Assembly (NCBI GenBank): GCA_019322805.1
Contig: JAHWIC010000002.1
Span: 2,938-66,937, forward strand
From: Candidatus Woesearchaeota archaeon
Lineage (GTDB): Archaea; Nanobdellota; Nanobdellia; Woesearchaeales; JAHWIC01
DNA: 64,000 nucleotides
Direction: 5' to 3'
Under the pieces are notes generated by a model. The model saw nothing but the letters and a program-made list of their open reading frames with translations, searched no databases and was not told the DNA's origin. The position numbers and the translations under genes were made by a program. This document shows positions 24,792 through 47,980 of this stretch, piece after piece. Every line of letters starts with the position of its first letter. The first letter of the stretch is position 1.

Positions 24792-25860
24792 CGCTGAATT
24801 TTTTTATAAACAGTTTCCCTTTATTCGCCTTAACAGAAAACTCGTCCTTTTCAGCAAACTTGGTTATATTTGTTATGACTTCCGGCAAAAGGATCCTGTT
24901 TCCCCTAAAATCAAGATTTGTTATGATTTCTTTTGAAGGCTCTGCCCCTATTTCTTTCAGTATATCCTTTGTCGTTTCTTCTTTTCCAGACTCGTGAGAT
25001 TCCTTTGCTTTCATATATAAGAATTTAGCAATCTTATCTGCAACATTTATCTTTGTTGCTTGGGTAATGCCCTGCAAGCCAGGTGACAGGTTTATCTCTA
25101 TAACAGTAGGGCCTTTCACACTTTCTAATATATCAACAGCGCAGATATCTGCTTCTATTGCCTCAGCAGCCCTGATTGCCAGTTTCTTTGTATGGGCATC
25201 AAGCTCGTAGGGTTCACCAGTGCCGCCTGCATGTATATTTGCGCGCTTTTCGCCAAACTCTGCTTTGCGCTTCATAGCTGCCACAACCTTATCGCCAACA
25301 ACTATGGCTCTTACATCTATGCCAGCGCTCTCTACATATTCCTGGATTATGAACGGCTGCCTTAAAGCAGCTAAAGCATCAAGCATAGAGGCTGCAGATG
25401 AGTATGAATCTGCAAACATAACCCCCTTACCATGAGAGCCGTGAGGAAATTTCATAACAATCGGATAATTCACCTTCTTAAGAATTTTCTTTGCCGCCTC
25501 TATAGTTGCAGCTATATAAGTAGTTGGCATTGGTATCTTATGCTGCTGAATATCTAATTGAGTCAACAGCTTATCATGGCCTACTGTGAATGCAACCGGC
25601 TTTATCGGCATGTATGTTTTGCCGTACAAAGCAGTTGCTATGGATCTAAGCAAAGGCTCATACCTAAAAGACCCCTTCAGGTATATGCAGTCATATGTAT
25701 CAAATGGCTTGCCTTCGTAAAGAACTTCAAGAGACTCACTGCCTAGGTTCACTTCAATGTTTTTTAGGTCTATATCATCAACTACCTTAAAGTATTTCTC
25801 CATCTCTTTGACTATCATCAAAGAGCTTTTGCTTCTTAATGATATTACTGCTGCTTTCAT
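24772..25860 (-). CDS. ATP-grasp ligase, RimK family (alpha-L-glutamate ligase-like)
   Basis: RimK-like ATP-grasp motifs YPIVMKFPHGSHGKGVMF, FIIQEYVESAGIDVRAIVVG, VIEINLSPGLQG. Confidence 0.75.
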   Translation of the reverse strand: MKAAVISLRSKSSLMIVKEMEKYFKVVDDIDLKNIEVNLGSESLEVLYEGKPFDTYDCIYLKGSFRYEPLLRSIATALYGKTYMPIKPVAFTVGHDKLLTQLDIQQHKIPMPTTYIAATIEAAKKILKKVNYPIVMKFPHGSHGKGVMFADSYSSAASMLDALAALRQPFIIQEYVESAGIDVRAIVVGDKVVAAMKRKAEFGEKRANIHAGGTGEPYELDAHTKKLAIRAAEAIEADICAVDILESVKGPTVIEINLSPGLQGITQATKINVADKIAKFLYMKAKESHESGKEETTKDILKEIGAEPSKEIITNLDFRGNRILLPEVITNITKFAEKDEFSVKANKGKLFIKKFSVGEEKK

Positions 25861-25965
25861 TTTTTCTATAATTCCTCTATATATCCAAAAATTAAAGCTA
25901 CGAACGATAGTGTCTCAAGCTTTGCTTGAGATAACGAATGCAGTGAGTGTGAGTATGCTTTCATT

Positions 25966-26313
25966 TTAGCGTTTTGAAGGGTCTATTAAAAATCCTTCCT
26001 TTAGTATATTTTGGCCAATCAAGCATCTGTATTTCATATGGCTCCTGTCAGCCAGGGTAAACTCTCCTTTTAGCTTTTTGTCAGCTAATTTCACTTCAGC
26101 ATTTATAACCGGCCTTAGTTTGTTGCCATGGGCTGATTTAACTAATTTTGACTTGATTACAGGCCCAAGCTTTAGTTTAGCAGCTAATTTTACATCCATT
26201 GAGCTTTTTGTAGCTCCTGTATCAATACGCGCCATGACACTCCTGCGCTTCTTTTTGCCGTATATTGTAACCTTCTCGCTAAGCCCGATTATTGTCTTAT
26301 CCTTGTGTTCCAT
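25966..26313 (-). CDS. Retropepsin-like aspartic protease domain protein (RimK-associated, COG4067-like)
   Basis: RIDTGATKSSM D-T-G-A motif. 115 aa and immediately upstream of RimK, as is typical. Confidence 0.6.
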   Translation of the reverse strand: MEHKDKTIIGLSEKVTIYGKKKRRSVMARIDTGATKSSMDVKLAAKLKLGPVIKSKLVKSAHGNKLRPVINAEVKLADKKLKGEFTLADRSHMKYRCLIGQNILKEGFLIDPSKR

Positions 26314-26387
26314 AGCTAAAACCTGAGCGTATTTTGGTTTATAAAGGTTTCCACCAAGTTAAATAAAGTTTTATTCCCATAAAAAGA

Positions 26388-26566
26388 AAAAAATCCACCC
26401 ACTCACGGCAGCCGTCGCCACTACGTGGCTCGCTCGCCAGCCAGCGAAATGTGAGCGAGTTCGCGAGCTCACTCGCAGGTCGCTGGCGCGTCCCCAGGAT
26501 TTGCAAAGTGAGGCTTGCTCGCTTTGCTCGCAAGCCATTCGCCGGCGCCGTGGATGGATTTTTTCT
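26388..26566. other. GC-rich (~65% GC) highly structured ~180-nt island with 15-nt imperfect terminal inverted repeats; candidate structured ncRNA or MITE
   Basis: Termini aaaaaatccacccac / gtggatggatttttt. Internal stems include cgccagc/gctggcg, gtgagc/gctcac and ggcttgc/gcaagcc. Contains ccaggatttgcaaagt, which resembles the 3' ends of this genome's tRNA T-loop introns. It starts 7 nt after the stop of the minus-strand aminopeptidase gene. ORF 26339..26533 is probably spurious. Confidence 0.4.
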
Positions 26567-26572
26567 TATGCC

Positions 26573-27646
26573 CTATACTACCAACTTTTCACCATCAACA
26601 TAAATAGATGGGTTTCTAAATATCTGGTCAAGGTGGATTATTGCGTAGATTGTTCCGCCAAACCAGTAATTTGAGCCTAATGCAAAGTGGGCAGTACCAA
26701 GGACCTTCTCATCAATAATGGTTGCTCCAACAATCCTTGCATTTGGATTAAGGCCGATACCAAACTCTCCAACACGTCTAATGCCCCAGGGGTGCTTTGC
26801 TTTTGCCTCTGCCCAGTCCAAGGTTAATTTTAATGCGTCAGCTTCCTTGTCCCCGTCTATCTCAACAACCTTGCCTTTTTCTACTATTAAAGTGATGGGG
26901 TGTTTTACCAGCGTAGAGCCTTCTTTATGTGACGACGAGGCATCTATGACCATTTTTCCAGATACATATTTCTTCCCATAAGGAGGGATATAAACTTCCC
27001 CAGCTGGTATGTTGCCACCTGTAGCTGGTTTTTTGTAATCACCATCATTCTTTACAGCCTTCTTACTTTTAATATTCATATAGAAGTCTGTTCCCTTCGG
27101 AGATGTTACATGCAGTTCCTTGCCATCATCAAGTATTTGTTTTATTTGTTCTGATCTTTCCTGCAGAGCCTTATAATCAATATTGATGGAGTTTGCTACT
27201 AGAGAAAATCTATCATTAGTCAGCCTGCCTATTTTCGGGGTTGATACAAACCTATGGCCGTGAGATTTCACAAATTTTCTATAACTTTTTCCAAGGTCTT
27301 TTATTGAACCAAGCCTGTTTGAGAGGTTGAGAATTATTATGTTGCCTTCTTTCAAATTCTCCAAAGAATCTATAATATTTTCGTCTGCATCGTCACCTTT
27401 GGTTTTAGGCTTTTGTATTATCAAATTTGCATTTAAACCAAGTTCTCTTGCAGCAACATAATAGCTAGTTGCCATTAATGCAGCAATGCGCCTGCCTTCA
27501 TAGCCTTCATCACCTACAATAAGAACCTCTTCTTTCTTTGCATTAAGGCATTCTGTTAACACCCTTTTGAAAATATGTGAATGAGATTTAGCAGAATCTA
27601 TCAGATTGTATTTTTCCAATAATTTTAGTGTTGTTCTTGGATGCAA
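26573..27646 (-). CDS. M29-family aminopeptidase (AmpS/PepS-like)
   Basis: GGNIPAGEVYIPP and LGTAHFALG motifs of thermophilic aminopeptidase M29. Confidence 0.7.
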   Translation of the reverse strand: MHPRTTLKLLEKYNLIDSAKSHSHIFKRVLTECLNAKKEEVLIVGDEGYEGRRIAALMATSYYVAARELGLNANLIIQKPKTKGDDADENIIDSLENLKEGNIIILNLSNRLGSIKDLGKSYRKFVKSHGHRFVSTPKIGRLTNDRFSLVANSINIDYKALQERSEQIKQILDDGKELHVTSPKGTDFYMNIKSKKAVKNDGDYKKPATGGNIPAGEVYIPPYGKKYVSGKMVIDASSSHKEGSTLVKHPITLIVEKGKVVEIDGDKEADALKLTLDWAEAKAKHPWGIRRVGEFGIGLNPNARIVGATIIDEKVLGTAHFALGSNYWFGGTIYAIIHLDQIFRNPSIYVDGEKLVV

Positions 27647-32744: not shown

Positions 32745-32872
32745 GAGTCCGTAGCTCAGTCTGGTTTAGAGCGCTGGTCTTATATGACTACGCTTTAATC
32801 AATCTAAGAGAGCCAGCGGTCTGGGGTTCAAATAGTAATGCTCAGCATTGCTTGGATGTCCCCGCGGACTCA
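32745..32872 (+). tRNA. tRNA-Ile (anticodon TAT) with two introns (anticodon loop 37/38 ~26 nt, and T-loop ~26 nt)
   Basis: Acceptor GAGTCCG/CGGACTC. D-arm GCTC..GAGC. Anticodon stem CTGGT/GCCAG with loop CTTATA|tgactacgctttaatcaatctaagag|A. T-arm TGGGG-TTCAAAT|agtaatgctcagcattgcttggatgt|CCCC-G. Discriminator A. Confidence 0.6.
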
Positions 32873-32906: not shown

Positions 32907-33051
32907 GCCCCTGTGGTGTAGTCCGGCCAATCATTCAGCCTTTTCGTGTTGGCAATCGTCCGACTCGGTGCGATTCCATCGAAAACAGGCTGGGACCTGG
33001 GTTCGAACGCCGTTAAGCGAAGCTTATGGCTTGAAAGTCCCGGCGGGGGCA
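32907..33051 (+). tRNA. tRNA-Glu (anticodon TTC) with two introns (anticodon loop ~40 nt, T-loop ~30 nt)
   Basis: Acceptor GCCCCTG/CGGGGGC. Anticodon stem CAGCC/GGCTG with loop TTTTCG|40-nt intron|A. T-arm CTGGG-TTCGAAC|gccgttaagcgaagcttatggcttgaaagt|CCCGG. Discriminator A. Confidence 0.65.
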
Positions 33052-33649: not shown

Positions 33650-35288
<1,639 letters not shown>

Positions 35289-35327
35289 TTATTTCAATTT
35301 TTCATGATCAGAAACTGGGCCCGTAGC

Positions 35328-35450
35328 TCAGCAGTAGAGCGCCGCCCTTGCATTATACGTTTATAGTATATAGTATACGAGCGAGGCGGAGGCCTCGGGT
35401 TCGAATATTCCAGGACCATTGGACTGGATTTGAAAGTCCCGACGGGTCCA
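35328..35450 (+). tRNA. tRNA-Ala (anticodon TGC) in the 16S-23S spacer, with two introns (anticodon loop and T-loop)
   Basis: Acceptor GGGCCCG/CGGGTCC. Anticodon stem CCGCC/GGCGG with loop CTTGCA|tatacgtttatagtatatagtatacgagcg|A. T-arm TCGGG-TTCGAAT|attccaggaccattggactggatttgaaagt|CCCGA. Discriminator A. Confidence 0.75.
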
Positions 35451-35571
35451 TCTTTTACCTTAGGTGCAGAATAATCAGATAATGCTTATTTTTCATTTGA
35501 ACCAATCAATGATTGTATTATCTTGGTTGGAAGGTTGAAATCATTTTAATGAAACCATGCATAGTTGGTAG

Positions 35572-38725: not shown

Positions 38726-39145
38726 GTGGTGTTCTTTTACAGCATGGCTAGACTATTCAAGAATATGGAGATATACCAATTAAGCTATAACCTTGCAATA
38801 GATATTCATAGGTTATTGGACAAGTTCCCTGAGAAAGAAAAGGATAACTTAATATCTCAGATGAGAAGAGCAGTTACGTCTATTCCGTTGAATATTGCTG
38901 AGGGAAGCGTAAAAAAATCCTATAGAGAATTTCTTAATTTTTTAGGCTACTCTTATGGTTCTGCAAAAGAACTTGACGTTTTATTATCAATGTCAAAAGA
39001 TTTAAAATATATCACAGAGAAAGAATATGATGAGCTTTTTGGTAAGCTAGACAAACTTATGGCGAAACTTTTTGGTTTTATGAAGAATATTGAATCAAGG
39101 TTTGAAAATAAAAAGAAATTTTTTACAAAGTATAAAGGAAAATGA
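38726..39145 (+). CDS. Four-helix-bundle protein of the '23S rRNA intervening-sequence protein' family (PF05635-like)
   Basis: IYQLSYNLAIDIHRLLDKFPEKEKDNLISQMRRAVTSIPLNIAEGSVKKSYREFLNFLGYSYGSAKEL matches the family consensus (...FP.EE...L.SQ.RRAA.SI..NIAEG......EF..FL..A.GS..EL). It sits immediately 3' of the 23S gene. Confidence 0.65.
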   Translation: MVFFYSMARLFKNMEIYQLSYNLAIDIHRLLDKFPEKEKDNLISQMRRAVTSIPLNIAEGSVKKSYREFLNFLGYSYGSAKELDVLLSMSKDLKYITEKEYDELFGKLDKLMAKLFGFMKNIESRFENKKKFFTKYKGK

Positions 39146-40119
39146 TATGTTTAGGTATTGAAAGCACAGCTCACACCTTTGGTGTTGGAATCATTGACGA
39201 TAAAGGAAAGATACTAGCTGATGCTAGAAATAGCTATACAACAGAATCTGGTGGGATTCATCCTTCTCAAGCAAAGGAGCACCATGAGTTAGTTGCTGAC
39301 GAGGTTATTTACGAAGCTCTTAACCAAGCTAAGCTTGAACTTAAGGATATTAATTTGATTAGTTTTTCACAAGGTCCTGGTTTGCCACCTTGCCTTGTTG
39401 TTGGATTGCAGAAGGTGAAAGAGCTTTCTAAAAAAGCCCATAAGCCTGTTGTTGGTGTTAATCATTGTATTGCGCATCTTGAAATTGGAAATCTATTGAC
39501 TAATTCTAATGATCCTGTATTGCTATATGTGAGCGGAGCAAATACTCAGGTTATTGCTTACGACGGCGGCAAGTATAGAATATTTGGAGAGACTCTTGAT
39601 AAGGGTGTTGGTAATTTTCTTGATGCTTTTGCTCGTCATGCTGGAATGGGCTTTCCAGGCGGACCTAAGATATACGAGCTTGCACTTAAAGGCAAAGAAT
39701 ATGTTGAACTGCCTTATGTTGTAAAAGGAATGGATATTTCTGTAAGCGGTATTCTTACAAATGTAAAACAAAAGTTTGATTCTAAAAAGTACAAGTTAGA
39801 GGATTTAGCATATTCTATTCAGGAAACCGTTTTTGCAATGCTTGTTGAGGTTGCTGAGCGTGCTATGGCACACTGCGAAAAAACAGAGCTTTTGCTTGGT
39901 GGTGGAGTTGCTTGCAATAAAAGATTGCAGGAGATGTGTGAGAAGATGTGTAAGGATAGAGGCGCTAGATTATTTGTTCCTGAAAACCGTGTTTTAACTG
40001 ATAATGCAATAATGATTGCTTGGCAGGGTATTCTCGAGCAGAAGAAACGCGAGCCACTTGATAAGATTGATATTCTGCCAAATTGGCGTACTGATGATGT
40101 TAAGGTTGATTGGAGATAA
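39142..40119 (+). CDS. kae1: tRNA N6-adenosine threonylcarbamoyltransferase Kae1 (KEOPS catalytic subunit)
   Basis: MICLGIESTAHTFGVGII...GVNHCIAHLEIG...LLGGGVACNKRL, full-length Kae1/TsaD. Confidence 0.9.
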   Translation: MICLGIESTAHTFGVGIIDDKGKILADARNSYTTESGGIHPSQAKEHHELVADEVIYEALNQAKLELKDINLISFSQGPGLPPCLVVGLQKVKELSKKAHKPVVGVNHCIAHLEIGNLLTNSNDPVLLYVSGANTQVIAYDGGKYRIFGETLDKGVGNFLDAFARHAGMGFPGGPKIYELALKGKEYVELPYVVKGMDISVSGILTNVKQKFDSKKYKLEDLAYSIQETVFAMLVEVAERAMAHCEKTELLLGGGVACNKRLQEMCEKMCKDRGARLFVPENRVLTDNAIMIAWQGILEQKKREPLDKIDILPNWRTDDVKVDWR

Positions 40120-46657: not shown

Positions 46658-46797
46658 TAGCGGGGAATGGACTCTCAAATCCTGAGGGATTTGTGGTCTC
46701 CCTCTGGGATATTTGAACCATCGACCTGAGGGTCTCTCTGCTTAAGCATATGAGCCCTCCGGGCACTCCTGACTGCCCTACCCCGCTGTAAGGTCTG
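46658..46797 (-). tRNA. Initiator tRNA-Met (anticodon CAT, A1:U72 pair) with two introns (anticodon loop ~15 nt; T-loop ~40 nt)
   Basis: Minus-strand read: AGCGGGG-TA-GGGC-AGTCAGGAGT-GCCC-G-GAGGG-CTCATA|tgcttaagcagagag|A-CCCTC-AGGTC-GATGG-TTCAAAT|atcccagagggagaccacaaatccctcaggatttgagagt|CCATT-CCCCGCT-A. The A1:U72 pair is an archaeal initiator hallmark. It overlaps the spurious ORF 46641..47162. Confidence 0.7.
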
Positions 46798-47771: not shown

Positions 47772-47897
47772 ACGCCGCGGGGGAGACTTTCAAAAAGCAT
47801 GCCGAACGCTGCGCGCGGCATGCTGTTTTTGAACTCCCGTGCCCCGAAGGACAGAGGATTAGCAATCCTCCGCAATGGCCGGGCTATGCGACCGCGG
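47772..47897 (-). tRNA. tRNA-Ser (anticodon GCT) with long variable arm and a ~41-nt T-loop intron
   Basis: Minus-strand read: GCCGCGG-TC-GCAT-AGCCCGGCCA-TTGC-G-GAGGA-TTGCTAA-TCCTC-TGTCCTTCGGGGCAC (variable arm hairpin GTCC/GGGC)-GGGAG-TTCAAAA|acagcatgccgcgcgcagcgttcggcatgctttttgaaagt|CTCCC-CCGCGGC-G, then TTTT. Appears as a GC-rich island on the plus strand. ORF 47875..48057 is spurious. Confidence 0.75.
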
Positions 47898-47980
47898 CAT
47901 AGGATTTGTTATTTGTTATTTATATATAAATGTTGTTGATTTCATAATATTTAAATATCAGGATAAAAAGATTAGTACAT

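What the first reader, a model, noticed from the sequence alone, without database searches (positions are those of the whole stretch)
26388..26566. GC-rich (~65%) structured island with 15-nt terminal inverted repeats in an AT-rich genome
A ~180-nt block sits 7 nt after the stop of the minus-strand aminopeptidase gene. Its compositional jump rivals the rRNA and tRNA genes. It is bounded by aaaaaatccacccac ... gtggatggatttttt (15 nt, 1 mismatch), so oligo-T follows on either strand. Several nested stems are present (cgccagc/gctggcg, gtgagc/gctcac, ggcttgc/gcaagcc). The segment ccaggatttgcaaagt resembles the conserved 3' ends of this genome's tRNA T-loop introns (ggatttgaaagt). I could not fold it as a tRNA, 5S rRNA, or recognisable SRP or RNase P RNA. 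Open candidates are a novel or reduced structured ncRNA (SRP RNA and RNase P RNA are not otherwise accounted for in this window), a heavily intron-disrupted or permuted tRNA, or a GC-rich MITE of foreign origin.
Basis: seen in the sequence. Interest (0 to 1): 0.75.

Follow-up and report, generated by a model that had tools for sequence, protein, structure and literature searches.

The report
Mobile panhandle RNA element, DPANN archaea
The GC-rich island is one copy of an uncatalogued family of hairpin-ended, non-coding, RNA-structured elements that sit at different intergenic sites in closely related tiny (DPANN) archaea and have multiplied in some of them; it is not an SRP, RNase P, 5S or tRNA gene.

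Summary
Window 26386-26565 is the highest-GC stretch of the 64-kb window, has 15-nt inverted ends and folds far better than shuffles. It matches no Rfam family and no tRNA. The host is a Woesearchaeota-type archaeon. A scan with the conserved 3' arm recovered about 27 distinct relatives of 93-422 nt. They share a terminal helix G-A6-UCCAGCCAY / GUGGCUGGA-U6-C, a 4-nt bulge, GGC/GCC and a covarying second helix. Most also have a junction with a hypervariable hairpin P3 and a short hairpin P4. Pairing is 97%, with compensatory changes. G.U pairs outnumber A.C pairs 46 to 3, so a single strand is under selection, which is the window's minus strand. A covariance model built without the window hits only the island (44.8 bits). 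The element is present or absent at two sites among relatives about 90% identical in protein sequence. One complete genome had a single arm match. Two populations carry at least 8 and about 17 copies, with chimeric and nested forms. No copy encodes a protein or lies next to a mobility gene. Best reading: a new, non-autonomous, mobile structured element, here inserted between the aminopeptidase stop codon and the rimB-like promoter. Its molecular role and mobilisation mechanism are inferred, not shown.

The parts
26386..26565 (-). Whole element (180 nt): G-A6 ... U7-C panhandle, a member of the new family
   Evidence: Covariance model built without the window hits 26388-26564 on the minus strand, 44.8 bits, E about 3e-11, and it is the only hit in 64 kb. 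Segment map.
26559..26565 (-). Closing G plus A-run (5' end of the terminal helix; pairs with the U-run and C)
   Evidence: G precedes the A-run in 22 of 27 family copies. Empty sites in relatives carry an A-run at the insertion point.
26550..26558 (-). P1 5' strand UCCAUCCAC
   Evidence: Pairs with 26394-26402. Position 5 is U.G here, G-C in most members, and U-A or A-U in others.
26547..26549 (-). P1b 5' strand GGC
   Evidence: GGC/GCC is invariant in 22 of 23 members.
26543..26546 (-). P2 5' strand GCCG
   Evidence: Pairs with CGGC at 26411-26414. L003 has GCUG/CAGC, a compensatory change. P2 is 100% paired across the family with 3-4 pair types at its variable positions.
26415..26542 (-). 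Variable GC-rich interior (takes the place of P3, the joiner and P4 in typical members)
   Evidence: Does not align to the family core. Shares short modules with L050 and L055, for example GCGAACUCGCUCACAUU.
26512..26536 (-). Interior hairpin GGCUUGC-11 nt-GCAAGCC
   Evidence: (I9)
26440..26487 (-). Interior long palindromic hairpin GCCAGCGA...UCGCUGGC, with a GUGAGC/GCGAAC tandem G.A motif. Contig L016 diverges from the window inside it.
   Evidence: (I1)
26417..26429 (-). P4-like hairpin GCCAC-GUA-GUGGC
   Evidence: The GUA loop also occurs in P4 of L035, L037 and L050.
26411..26414 (-). P2 3' strand CGGC
26403..26410 (-). 1-nt bulge U (26410), P1b 3' strand GCC (26407-26409), and the conserved 4-nt bulge GUGA (26403-26406)
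   Evidence: The bulge is RUGR in all 22 curated members.
26394..26402 (-). P1 3' strand GUGGGUGGA
26386..26393 (-). U7 run plus closing C (candidate archaeal oligo-U termination signal)
   Evidence: C follows the U-run in 25 of 29 copies. Scored as terminator-like on both strands.
26573..27646 (-). Upstream neighbour: M29 aminopeptidase gene. Its stop codon lies 7 nt before the element.
26338..26345 (-). TATA box (TTTATAAA) of the downstream rimB-like gene (25966-26313). It is older than the element, so it is context rather than part of it.
   Evidence: AACCTTTATAAACC is conserved in all five syntenic loci, including the three without the element.

Best explanation
The island is the only copy in this window of a previously uncatalogued family of non-coding, panhandle-shaped structured elements of Woesearchaeota-like DPANN archaea.

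The biologically relevant strand is the minus strand, the same sense as both flanking genes. The conserved part is a terminal helix of about 16 bp (G-A6-UCCAKCCAY paired with GUGGMUGGA-U6-C), a 4-nt bulge on the 3' strand, a 3-bp GGC/GCC helix and a covarying helix P2. Inside that frame the sequence is free to change and to accept inserted modules.

The family behaves as a non-autonomous mobile element. It lands after A-runs in AT-rich intergenic DNA, typically 40-150 nt upstream of a co-oriented gene. One complete genome had a single arm match, and the window has one copy in 64 kb. In some lineages it has multiplied to roughly 8-17 or more copies.

In this genome it was inserted between the aminopeptidase stop codon and the pre-existing promoter of the rimB-like gene.

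Inferred, not shown: it is transcribed as the 3' end of the aminopeptidase mRNA and ends in its U7 run. There it would act as a very stable 3' stem-loop and terminator or insulator in front of the next promoter. Because the helices evolve with G.U-tolerant covariation on one strand only, whatever recognises or propagates the element would act on a single-stranded form: RNA, or possibly ssDNA.
For: Family and membership
- The 3'-arm scan found copies in 2 genomes and 41 metagenome stretches, giving about 27 distinct full-length members (L008 added; L023b found).
- A covariance model built from 17 members without the window hits only the island in the window, at 44.8 bits on the minus strand against 20.6 bits on the plus strand.

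Structure under selection
- 97.1% of cells are paired against 87% in shuffles and 37-51% when partners are slid. Ten pairs show compensatory change and 0 of 500 shuffles reach the observed covariation.
- P2 is 100% paired with CG/GC/AU and GC/CG/UA/UG at its variable positions.
- 46 G.U pairs against 3 A.C pairs.

Insertion and mobility
- Site 1 (aminopeptidase|rimB) is filled in the window and L003 and empty in L004/L057, L005 and L007. The downstream promoter is conserved in all.
- Site 2 (tRNA-Val|ScpA) is filled in L008, whose proteins are 90-91% identical to the window's, and empty in the window and L057.
- Only one arm match was found in the complete 1.14-Mb chromosome CP070655.
- At least 8 loci with near-identical copies occur in Ga0208373, and about 17 loci in Ga0315535/CAZPXC01.
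- Chimeric copies, nested modules and a solo arm are present.

No coding capacity and no helper
- The island's ORFs have no Pfam hit.
- No protein family recurs next to the copies.
- No RT, transposase or integrase occurs in about 53 kb of the window.

Ends and context
- G before the A-run in 22 of 27 copies; C after the U-run in 25 of 29.
- The downstream neighbour within 160 nt is a co-oriented gene start in 18 loci and a convergent gene end in 3 (de-duplicated by hand).
Against: - No flanking direct repeats (target-site duplication) were seen. The flanks instead extend the inverted repeat (by inspection).
- No autonomous parent element or mobilising enzyme was found.
- The element is GC-rich, whereas MITEs are typically AT-rich (PMC10969869).
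- The conserved junction motifs ((G)GA and (G)GARUA) and the covarying P4 in most members look more like a functional RNA than a selfish repeat. The window copy lacks exactly those motifs.
- Some copies have a well-placed TATA box and could be independent small-RNA genes (L009, L012, L015).
- Only 4 of about 25 loci lie just downstream of a co-oriented gene, so the '3' UTR/terminator' role cannot be the family's general function.
- Hairpin-plus-T-run sites are not enriched in this genome (14 found versus 17.7 expected).
- There is no expression data.
- Family members were fished with the 3' arm, so the conservation of that arm is partly by construction.
- The genome-collection scan used the narrower GCCGTG pattern and would have missed GCCATG-type copies, so 'single copy' in CP070655 is a lower bound.
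Confidence: 0.55

Rival explanations
1. A stand-alone, trans-acting small RNA gene family. The conserved terminal helix with its bulge and the junction would bind a protein, and the variable P3 hairpin would be tolerated or serve as cargo, as in Y RNAs or vault RNAs. The window copy would then be a divergent or decaying paralogue.
For: Strong covariation and conserved single-stranded joiners (G)GA and (G)GARUA. TATA box about 25 nt upstream plus a U-run terminator in L009, L012 and L015. One arm match in the complete genome CP070655 and one copy in this window.
Against: The locus differs between relatives that are 90% identical in protein sequence, and the syntenic sites are empty. The window and L003 copies lack the joiner motifs and start 7 nt after a stop codon without a convincing promoter of their own. 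Near-identical copies occur at 8-17 loci, with chimeras and nested inserts, in two populations. The conserved G...C pair lies outside the U-run.
Confidence: 0.25
2. A highly reduced or divergent version of a universal RNA: SRP RNA, RNase P RNA, 5S rRNA, or an intron-containing or permuted tRNA.
For: None of these was detected elsewhere in the window. FtsY lies 2 kb away, and in L012 a copy sits just upstream of SRP54. The motifs GAUGG...GAGUAGG recall the loop E region of 5S rRNA; this comparison rests on sequences recalled from my own knowledge and is only a lead.
Against: No Rfam hit at E <= 10 for the island or for typical members, and no tRNA call. The interior differs completely in length and sequence between relatives that are 89% identical. 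Copy number reaches 17 with 300-nt inserts. SRP-gene proximity is absent in the other loci. The domain order does not match 5S rRNA.
Confidence: 0.02
3. An ordinary transcription terminator hairpin of the aminopeptidase gene that grew in place. L004 has a small hairpin AAAACCCCTGGGGTTT at the same spot.
For: Position 7 nt after the stop codon; a U7 tail; terminator-like on both strands.
Against: The same arms, bulge and P2 occur in unrelated loci and in distant genomes. Hairpin-plus-T-run sites are not enriched in this genome. The covariance-model hit is specific.
Confidence: 0.05
4. An intron-like element cut out of transcripts by the archaeal splicing endonuclease at a bulge-helix-bulge motif and circularised. 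It would be related to the mobile T-loop tRNA introns that abound in this genome.
For: At least five tRNA genes in the window have T-loop introns. Two of those introns have UCC(A)G...CUGGAUUU ends like P1. The element has bulges flanking a 3-4-bp helix.
Against: In most members both bulges lie on the 3' strand, whereas a BHB needs 3-nt bulges on opposite strands, each 5' of a 4-bp helix (inspection). The shared UCCAG/CUGGA is only 5 bp. No exon context is conserved.
Confidence: 0.06
5. A fragment of horizontally acquired GC-rich DNA or a decayed coding remnant.
For: The compositional jump.
Against: Short ORFs without Pfam hits. The helices are conserved by covariation, not by codon pattern. 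The same GC-rich style occurs in copies from other AT-rich hosts (L003, L050, L055). No plasmid or phage match.
Confidence: 0.02

Closest known systems
Prokaryotic MITEs (for example Sulfolobus SM elements, Coxiella QMITE2)
   Same: Under 500 bp, non-coding, terminal inverted repeats, intergenic, multicopy in some genomes, a transcript that folds into a very stable stem-loop, and no transposase of its own (features as listed in PMC10969869).
   Different: No target-site duplication seen. GC-rich rather than AT-rich. One complete genome had a single arm match. No related IS found. Internal helices and joiners are conserved by RNA-type covariation with strand-specific G.U pairs, which a dsDNA-recognised TIR element does not need.
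Pneumococcal BOX / RUP / SPRITE elements and enterobacterial ERIC-type repeats
   Same: Modular small intergenic repeats that insert into one another, form stable RNA structures, and (for SPRITE) look like terminators (PMC10969869).
   Different: These are bacterial and unrelated in sequence. The family here has a fixed outer frame (P1, bulge, P1b, P2) with the modules placed inside one hairpin.
REP / REPIN elements mobilised by RAYT (HUH) transposases
   Same: Hairpin-forming repeats recognised as single strands, with strand-specific imperfect pairing, no TSD, and a conserved foot with a variable spacer (from my own knowledge of the REPIN literature).
   Different: REPs are 20-40-nt palindromes present in tens to hundreds of copies and are associated with a RAYT gene. 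No such gene was seen, and the arms here are not themselves palindromic units.
Y RNAs / vault RNAs (panhandle small RNAs)
   Same: The 5' and 3' ends form a conserved bulged helix. There is a 3' oligo-U, a variable central domain, and several paralogues with different interiors (from my own knowledge).
   Different: No Ro or vault homologue is known or was tested here. The loci are not stable between close relatives, and there are bursts of near-identical copies.
Mobile archaeal tRNA introns at non-canonical positions
   Same: Short structured RNA-level elements that spread between sites in archaeal genomes. They are abundant in this very genome.
   Different: Those introns sit in tRNA exons and carry a BHB motif. 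The element here is intergenic and has no canonical BHB.

Membership tests
New panhandle element family (defined here) | Terminal helix A-run-UCCAKCCAY / GUGGMUGGA-U-run | tested here: met
   Window: AAAAAAUCCAUCCAC / GUGGGUGGAUUUUUUU. Covariance model without the window scores 44.8 bits, E 3e-11.
New panhandle element family (defined here) | 4-nt RUGR bulge on the 3' strand, then GGC/GCC (P1b) | tested here: met
   GUGA bulge at 26403-26406; GGC at 26547-26549 pairs with GCC at 26407-26409.
New panhandle element family (defined here) | Covarying helix P2 next to P1b | tested here: met
   GCCG/CGGC here; GCUG/CAGC in L003.
New panhandle element family (defined here) | Junction joiners (G)GA and (G)GARUA, with P4 of the form GG...CC stacked on P2 | tested here: not met
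   The window has GCGAA and GAGCGA(G) instead, and its interior does not align to the model. The window, L003 and L055 form a divergent subtype.
MITE | Length under 500 bp with terminal inverted repeats of about 4-30 bp (PMC10969869) | tested here: met
   180 nt; 15-16-nt inverted ends.
MITE | Flanking direct repeats (target-site duplication) in young copies | tested here: not met
   No consistent direct repeats flank any copy. The flanks are G...C or CAG...CUG, which is inverted rather than direct.
MITE | Multicopy, with filled and empty sites | tested here: met
   Two polymorphic sites. At least 8 and about 17 loci in two populations. However, only one arm match in CP070655 and one copy in this window.
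MITE | Related autonomous IS that shares the TIRs and supplies a transposase in trans | tested here: inconclusive
   None in any fetched locus or in about 53 kb of the window. Whole genomes could not be scanned.
MITE | AT-rich composition | tested here: not met
   The element is 60-66% GC in a 38% GC genome.
Archaeal SRP RNA | Match to the Rfam Archaea_SRP model (helix 8 / helix 5 core) | tested here: not met
   No hit at E <= 10 on the island or on other members.
RNase P RNA | Match to the Rfam RNase P models (conserved regions CR-I to CR-V) | tested here: not met
   No hit at E <= 10.
tRNA (including intron-containing) | Cloverleaf detected by ARAGORN or the Rfam tRNA model | tested here: not met
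   These tools also miss this genome's T-loop-intron tRNAs, but by eye the island has no GGUUCGAAU T-arm or acceptor/D-arm pattern like those tRNAs.
tRNA (split or permuted) | SPLITS / tRNAscan-type search for permuted or split halves | not testable with these tools
   No such tool was available.
5S rRNA | Match to Rfam 5S_rRNA and slow sequence evolution | tested here: not met
   No hit. The interior is 178 nt here and 100 nt in the 89% relative.
BHB-type archaeal intron | Two 3-nt bulges on opposite strands separated by a 4-bp helix | tested here: not met
   The bulges of 4 nt and 1-3 nt both lie on the 3' strand.
REPIN / RAYT system | A RAYT (Y1 HUH) gene flanked by the repeats | not tested
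   Only local loci were seen, with no such ORF among the recurrent neighbours. Genome-wide search was not possible.
Y RNA-like RNP scaffold | Binding by a Ro60/Rsr-type protein, or adjacency to its gene | not testable with these tools
   No conserved protein neighbour.

The most novel reading that the evidence does not exclude
The family is a new class of RNA-level selfish or domesticated element in DPANN archaea. In one form of this reading, it is a structured RNA that propagates through its transcript, for example by priming on genomic A-runs with its 3' U-run using a host reverse transcriptase (own knowledge: RT-bearing diversity-generating retroelements are reported to be common in DPANN archaea; none was seen or tested here). 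In the other form, it is a modular RNP scaffold whose conserved bulged helix recruits a protein while hairpin P3 carries exchangeable cargo modules.
Probability: 0.2. Interest if true: 0.85.

Novelty: new variant of a known kind. Interest (0 to 1): 0.62.

Why it matters
DPANN archaea have tiny, streamlined genomes and almost no described non-coding RNA or repeat biology. This is a well-supported structured family: 97% pairing, compensatory changes and strand-specific wobbles. It is absent from Rfam 15. It is conserved in its frame across hosts from 33 to 50% GC, and it evidently moves and multiplies without any coding capacity.

It gives a concrete, testable entry point into two questions. The first is how non-autonomous elements spread in these symbionts. 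The second is whether a single-stranded (RNA or ssDNA) intermediate is involved.

There are also practical consequences. Contigs repeatedly break inside these elements. They could be mistaken for missing essential RNAs. A covariance model for them would improve annotation of Woesearchaeota MAGs.

Tried and rejected
- Rfam at gathering threshold on the whole window, and at E <= 10 on the island, on L011 and on L018: only rRNA, one tRNA and noise.
- ARAGORN: no tRNA in the island.
- Second copy in the window: none by BLAST, by arm pattern or by covariance model.
- Coding potential: three short ORFs with no Pfam hit.
- SRP link: a copy lies next to SRP54 in L012, and FtsY is nearby in the window and L008. 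tblastn shows no SRP genes in the other loci, and the second 253-nt copy (L015) is followed by unrelated genes. Rejected as coincidence or shared synteny.
- TnpB/omega-RNA or CRISPR-like idea for the module upstream of the Ga0315535 copies: no ORF of that kind nearby, and only a noise-level CRISPR-DR hit. Dropped.
- 5S rRNA loop E resemblance: domain order, copy number and rate of change do not fit.
- K-turn and BHB readings of the bulges and joiners: the strand order and bulge placement do not fit the consensus. This was by inspection only.
- Composite transposon or integrated element between paired copies (L009, L023): only housekeeping genes lie between them.
- Viral contigs, phage and plasmid collections: no match.
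- Literature: no description found by topic or by arm sequence.
- Generic hairpin terminators: not enriched in this genome.
- L016, a contig from the same species that diverges inside the island's central palindrome: this could be a rearrangement or an assembly chimera. Left unresolved.
Full report
**1. The observation**

The window is a 38% GC archaeal sequence with archaeal 16S and 23S rRNA genes. Proteins next to the finding are named Candidatus Woesearchaeota in public records. The window is part of a 104-kb ENA metagenome contig.

The stretch 26404-26553 is 66% GC, the highest 150-nt value in the 64 kb and above any rRNA window. Both strands fold far better than dinucleotide shuffles (z -5.8 and -5.3). 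The block starts 7 nt after the stop codon of the minus-strand M29 aminopeptidase (26573-27646). It ends 74 nt before the start of a minus-strand rimB-like gene (25966-26313). Contigs from other samples that span part or all of the island are 100% identical to it, including a 134-kb JGI contig with the complete element.

**2. What it is not**

Rfam 15 gives nothing on the island at E <= 10. Nothing else in the window scores beyond the rRNAs and one tRNA. ARAGORN finds no tRNA there. The three short ORFs have no Pfam match. There is no second copy in the window by BLAST, by arm pattern or by covariance model.

**3. Synteny shows an insertion**

I fetched the same locus from relatives whose aminopeptidase is 89, 85, 76 and 73% identical. 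The gap between the aminopeptidase and the rimB-like gene is as follows:

| Locus | Identity to window | Gap |
|---|---|---|
| window | - | 259 nt |
| L003 | 89% | 165 nt |
| L004 | 85% | 55 nt |
| L005 | 76% | 63 nt |
| L007 | 73% | 36 nt |

The promoter of the downstream gene (AACCTTTATAAACC) is conserved in all five loci. L003 carries a 100-nt GC-rich element at exactly the same place. It has the same two arms and a different, shorter interior. Two changes between the window and L003 are compensatory: U.G to G-C in the terminal helix, and GCCG/CGGC to GCUG/CAGC in the next helix. The U.G pair is valid only on the minus strand.

**4. A family**

A scan of species-representative genomes with the 3' arm found five contigs of one MAG (CAZPXC01) and one hit in a complete 1.14-Mb chromosome (CP070655, L008). 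There were also two chance hits without a 5' arm. The same kind of scan in JGI metagenomes gave 41 stretches, and viral contigs gave none.

About 27 distinct full-length members of 93-422 nt result (L008 added; L023b found). Read on the strand equivalent to the window's minus strand, they share these features in order:
- a G, then an A-run;
- P1, UCCAGCCAY paired with GUGGCUGGA;
- a 4-nt RUGR bulge on the 3' strand;
- P1b, GGC/GCC;
- P2, 3-7 bp;
- a joiner (G)GA;
- a hypervariable hairpin P3, from 15 to more than 300 nt, which accepts inserted modules;
- a joiner (G)GARUA;
- a hairpin P4 that starts GG and ends CC and abuts the 3' strand of P2;
- a U-run, then a C.

The shortest member (L017, 93 nt) is essentially this core alone.

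**5. The structure is under selection, on one strand**

On a hand-segmented alignment of 22 members, P1, P1b and P2 are 95-100% paired. P2 shows CG/GC/AU and GC/CG/UA/UG at its variable positions. One P1 position shows G-C, U-A, A-U and U.G.

On a model-based alignment of 23 members:
- 97.1% of cells are paired, against 87% in column shuffles and 37-51% when partners are slid;
- ten pairs carry compensatory changes;
- no shuffle out of 500 reaches the observed covariation.

Across the conserved helices there are 46 G.U pairs and only 3 A.C pairs. Selection therefore acts on a single-stranded form of the sense strand. That form is RNA, or conceivably ssDNA.

One caveat applies. Members were found through the 3' arm, so that arm's conservation is partly by construction. 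The 5' arm, P2, the joiners and P4 are independent of it. The covariance model also found one extra copy with a variant arm (L023 139-326).

**6. Formal membership of the island**

A covariance model built from 17 members without the window hits only 26388-26564 in the 64 kb. The minus strand scores 44.8 bits (E about 3e-11). The plus strand scores 20.6 bits, which comes from the palindromic arms alone.

The match rests on P1, the bulge, P1b and P2. The island's interior does not align to the P3-joiner-P4 core. The window, L003 and the partial L055 form a divergent, GC-rich subtype whose interiors share short modules with L050 and L055. Constraining the family helices costs only 2 kcal/mol relative to the free MFE (-88.7 versus -90.8).

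**7. Dynamics**

*Two polymorphic sites among close relatives.* Site 1 (aminopeptidase|rimB) is filled in the window and L003 and empty in L004/L057, L005 and L007. Site 2 (tRNA-Val|ScpA) is filled in L008, whose ScpA and PRPP synthase are 90-91% identical to the window's. It is empty in the window and in L057. The covariance model gave only chance-level hits in the 17.5 kb of L057 (best 9 bits, E 0.76). In the empty sites an A-run sits where the element would be (TAGAAAA^C, ACAAAA^C, TCTAAAA^).

*Copy number.* The chromosome CP070655 has one arm match. That scan used the narrower GCCGTG form, so this is a lower bound. In contrast, Ga0208373 has at least 8 loci that share the element plus exactly 36 nt of 3' flank. 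Its contigs break inside the repeat. The Ga0315535/CAZPXC01 population has about 17 distinct loci.

*Recombination and nesting.* L012 and L034 combine halves of different subtypes. L009 has a solo 3' arm 43 nt after a full copy. L026, L030, L012, L015 and L034 carry shared modules inserted in P3.

*No helper nearby.* No protein family recurs next to the copies, and the genes between paired copies are housekeeping genes. About 53 kb of the window contains no reverse transcriptase, transposase or integrase.

*No target-site duplication.* The flanks extend the inverted repeat instead. G precedes the A-run in 22 of 27 copies and C follows the U-run in 25 of 29.

**8. Context**

The next gene downstream is usually co-oriented, with its start 37-157 nt away: 18 distinct loci against 3 convergent gene ends within 160 nt (de-duplicated by hand). 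Those genes are unrelated in function (ScpA, SRP54, a TruD-like gene, rimB-like and others), so a riboswitch-type leader is unlikely.

Only four loci, the window among them, lie just after a co-oriented gene. Some copies (L009, L012, L015) have a TATA box about 25 nt upstream and could be transcribed on their own. The window copy has no convincing promoter of its own. Hairpin-plus-T-run sites are not enriched in this genome (14 versus 17.7 expected). The island is therefore not simply an overgrown example of a common terminator type.

**9. Interpretation**

*Shown:*
- a new structured family;
- the island's membership through the outer frame;
- single-strand, sense-specific selection;
- insertion polymorphism and lineage-specific bursts;
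- no coding capacity.

*Inferred:*
- that the family is a non-autonomous mobile element mobilised in trans through a single-stranded intermediate;
- that in this genome it is transcribed as the tail of the aminopeptidase mRNA and stops at its U7 run. There it would act as a stable 3' stem-loop and insulator in front of the rimB-like promoter.

The main rival is a trans-acting small RNA family of the Y-RNA or vault-RNA style. That reading is favoured by the conserved joiners and by the promoters of some copies. It is disfavoured by the unstable loci, the bursts, the chimeras, and the window copy's lack of the junction motifs. Universal RNAs (SRP, RNase P, 5S, tRNA), an in-situ terminator, a BHB intron and foreign DNA are each contradicted by specific tests, listed above and in the membership table.

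**10. Comparison with what is known**

The closest known kinds are these:
- prokaryotic MITEs: size, TIRs, intergenic position, stable transcripts, and mobilisation in trans (PMC10969869);
- the modular, mutually nested pneumococcal BOX, RUP and SPRITE repeats (PMC10969869);
- REP/REPIN elements, which are recognised as single-stranded hairpins (own knowledge).

The family differs from them in several respects. It has no target-site duplication and is GC-rich. One complete genome had a single arm match rather than many copies. It has a conserved multi-helix core with RNA-type covariation. No Rfam family, plasmid, phage or viral contig matches it, and no paper in the searchable library describes it.

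I rate it a new variant of a known kind (small non-autonomous structured repeats). There is a real chance (about 0.2) that it is something more unusual: an RNA-propagated element or a modular RNP scaffold.

**11.

The genome does have at least five tRNA genes with introns in the T-loop, whose 3' ends read UUGAAAGU. The similar string in the island lies on the antisense strand. It corresponds to half of the palindromic GGAUUUGC...GCAAAUCC hairpin seen as P4 in other members. It is not evidence for a tRNA.

Noticed in passing
window 35319-35452 (+); ~46660-46790 (-); ~32910-33050 (+); ~32790-32865 (+); ~47775-47900 (-): At least five tRNA genes carry non-canonical introns in the T-loop (after GGUUCGAAU), some with a second intron in the anticodon loop. 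One is tRNA-Ala in the 16S-23S spacer. All are missed by ARAGORN and the Rfam tRNA model. The intron 3' ends share UUGAAAGU, which can pair with the T-loop UUCGAA. These genes explain the other GC-rich peaks of the window.
   Followed up: partly
L023 330-620 (-), L011 318-560 (-), and the upstream regions of L019, L026, L030, L034, L036, L037, L053, L056: In the Ga0315535/CAZPXC01 population the panhandle is preceded by a second conserved structured non-coding module of about 150-230 nt. It has inverted ends CTTGAACGTGCA...TGCACTTGAAG and an optional 80-nt two-hairpin insert. One or two truncated tandem copies of its 5' part often lie further upstream. There is no Rfam hit and no ORF. This is possibly another new element or RNA.
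   Followed up: partly
L020, L021, L022, L024, L042, L043, L047, L048, L049 (sample Ga0208373): At least eight loci share the element plus exactly 36 nt of 3' flank (CAGTATCGCCTAACGAGAGATTAAATGGATGAAGCC, with a TATA-like TTAAAT) and then diverge. The contigs break inside the repeat. One contig (Ga0208373_1001586) has inverted copies at both of its ends.
   Followed up: partly
L016 / L061 (JGI Ga0209427_10167965) versus window 26478/26479: A contig from the same species is 100% identical to window 25034-26478. It then switches to unrelated sequence exactly inside the island's central palindrome. This is either a real rearrangement at the element or a palindrome-induced assembly chimera. Other short contigs (L002, L062-L064) simply end inside the island.
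   Followed up: partly
L012 5610-5862 (-), L034 229-650 (+), L009 1295-1316 (+): Two copies are chimeric: the 5' half of one subtype is joined to the 3' half of another, giving P2 or P1 mismatches. A solo 3' arm lies 43 nt after a full copy. Together these suggest recombination between copies.
   Followed up: no
L008 (CP070655.1) and L009-L015 (CAZPXC01): The record titles look wrong. The 'Omnitrophota bacterium' chromosome has ScpA and PRPP synthase 90-91% identical to this Woesearchaeota window and has an archaeal-type intron-containing tRNA. The 'Methanosarcinales' MAG has an FtsY 64% identical to the window's.
   Followed up: partly
L004 5075-5095 (the empty site of the island): The 85% relative has a small hairpin AAAACCCC-T-GGGGTTT directly after the aminopeptidase stop codon, where the window has the 180-nt element.
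   Followed up: no
L012 1748-3691 (-): FtsY is 647 aa here, with an N-terminal histidine-phosphatase-like segment fused ahead of the usual acidic linker and NG domain.
   Followed up: no
window ~38745-39146 (+) (L059 764-1165); window 33650-35286: An ORF of the 23S_rRNA_IVP family (PF05635) lies just downstream of the 23S rRNA gene. The 16S gene spans 1637 nt against a 1478-position model and contains at least one insertion (36 nt shown in the alignment).
   Followed up: no
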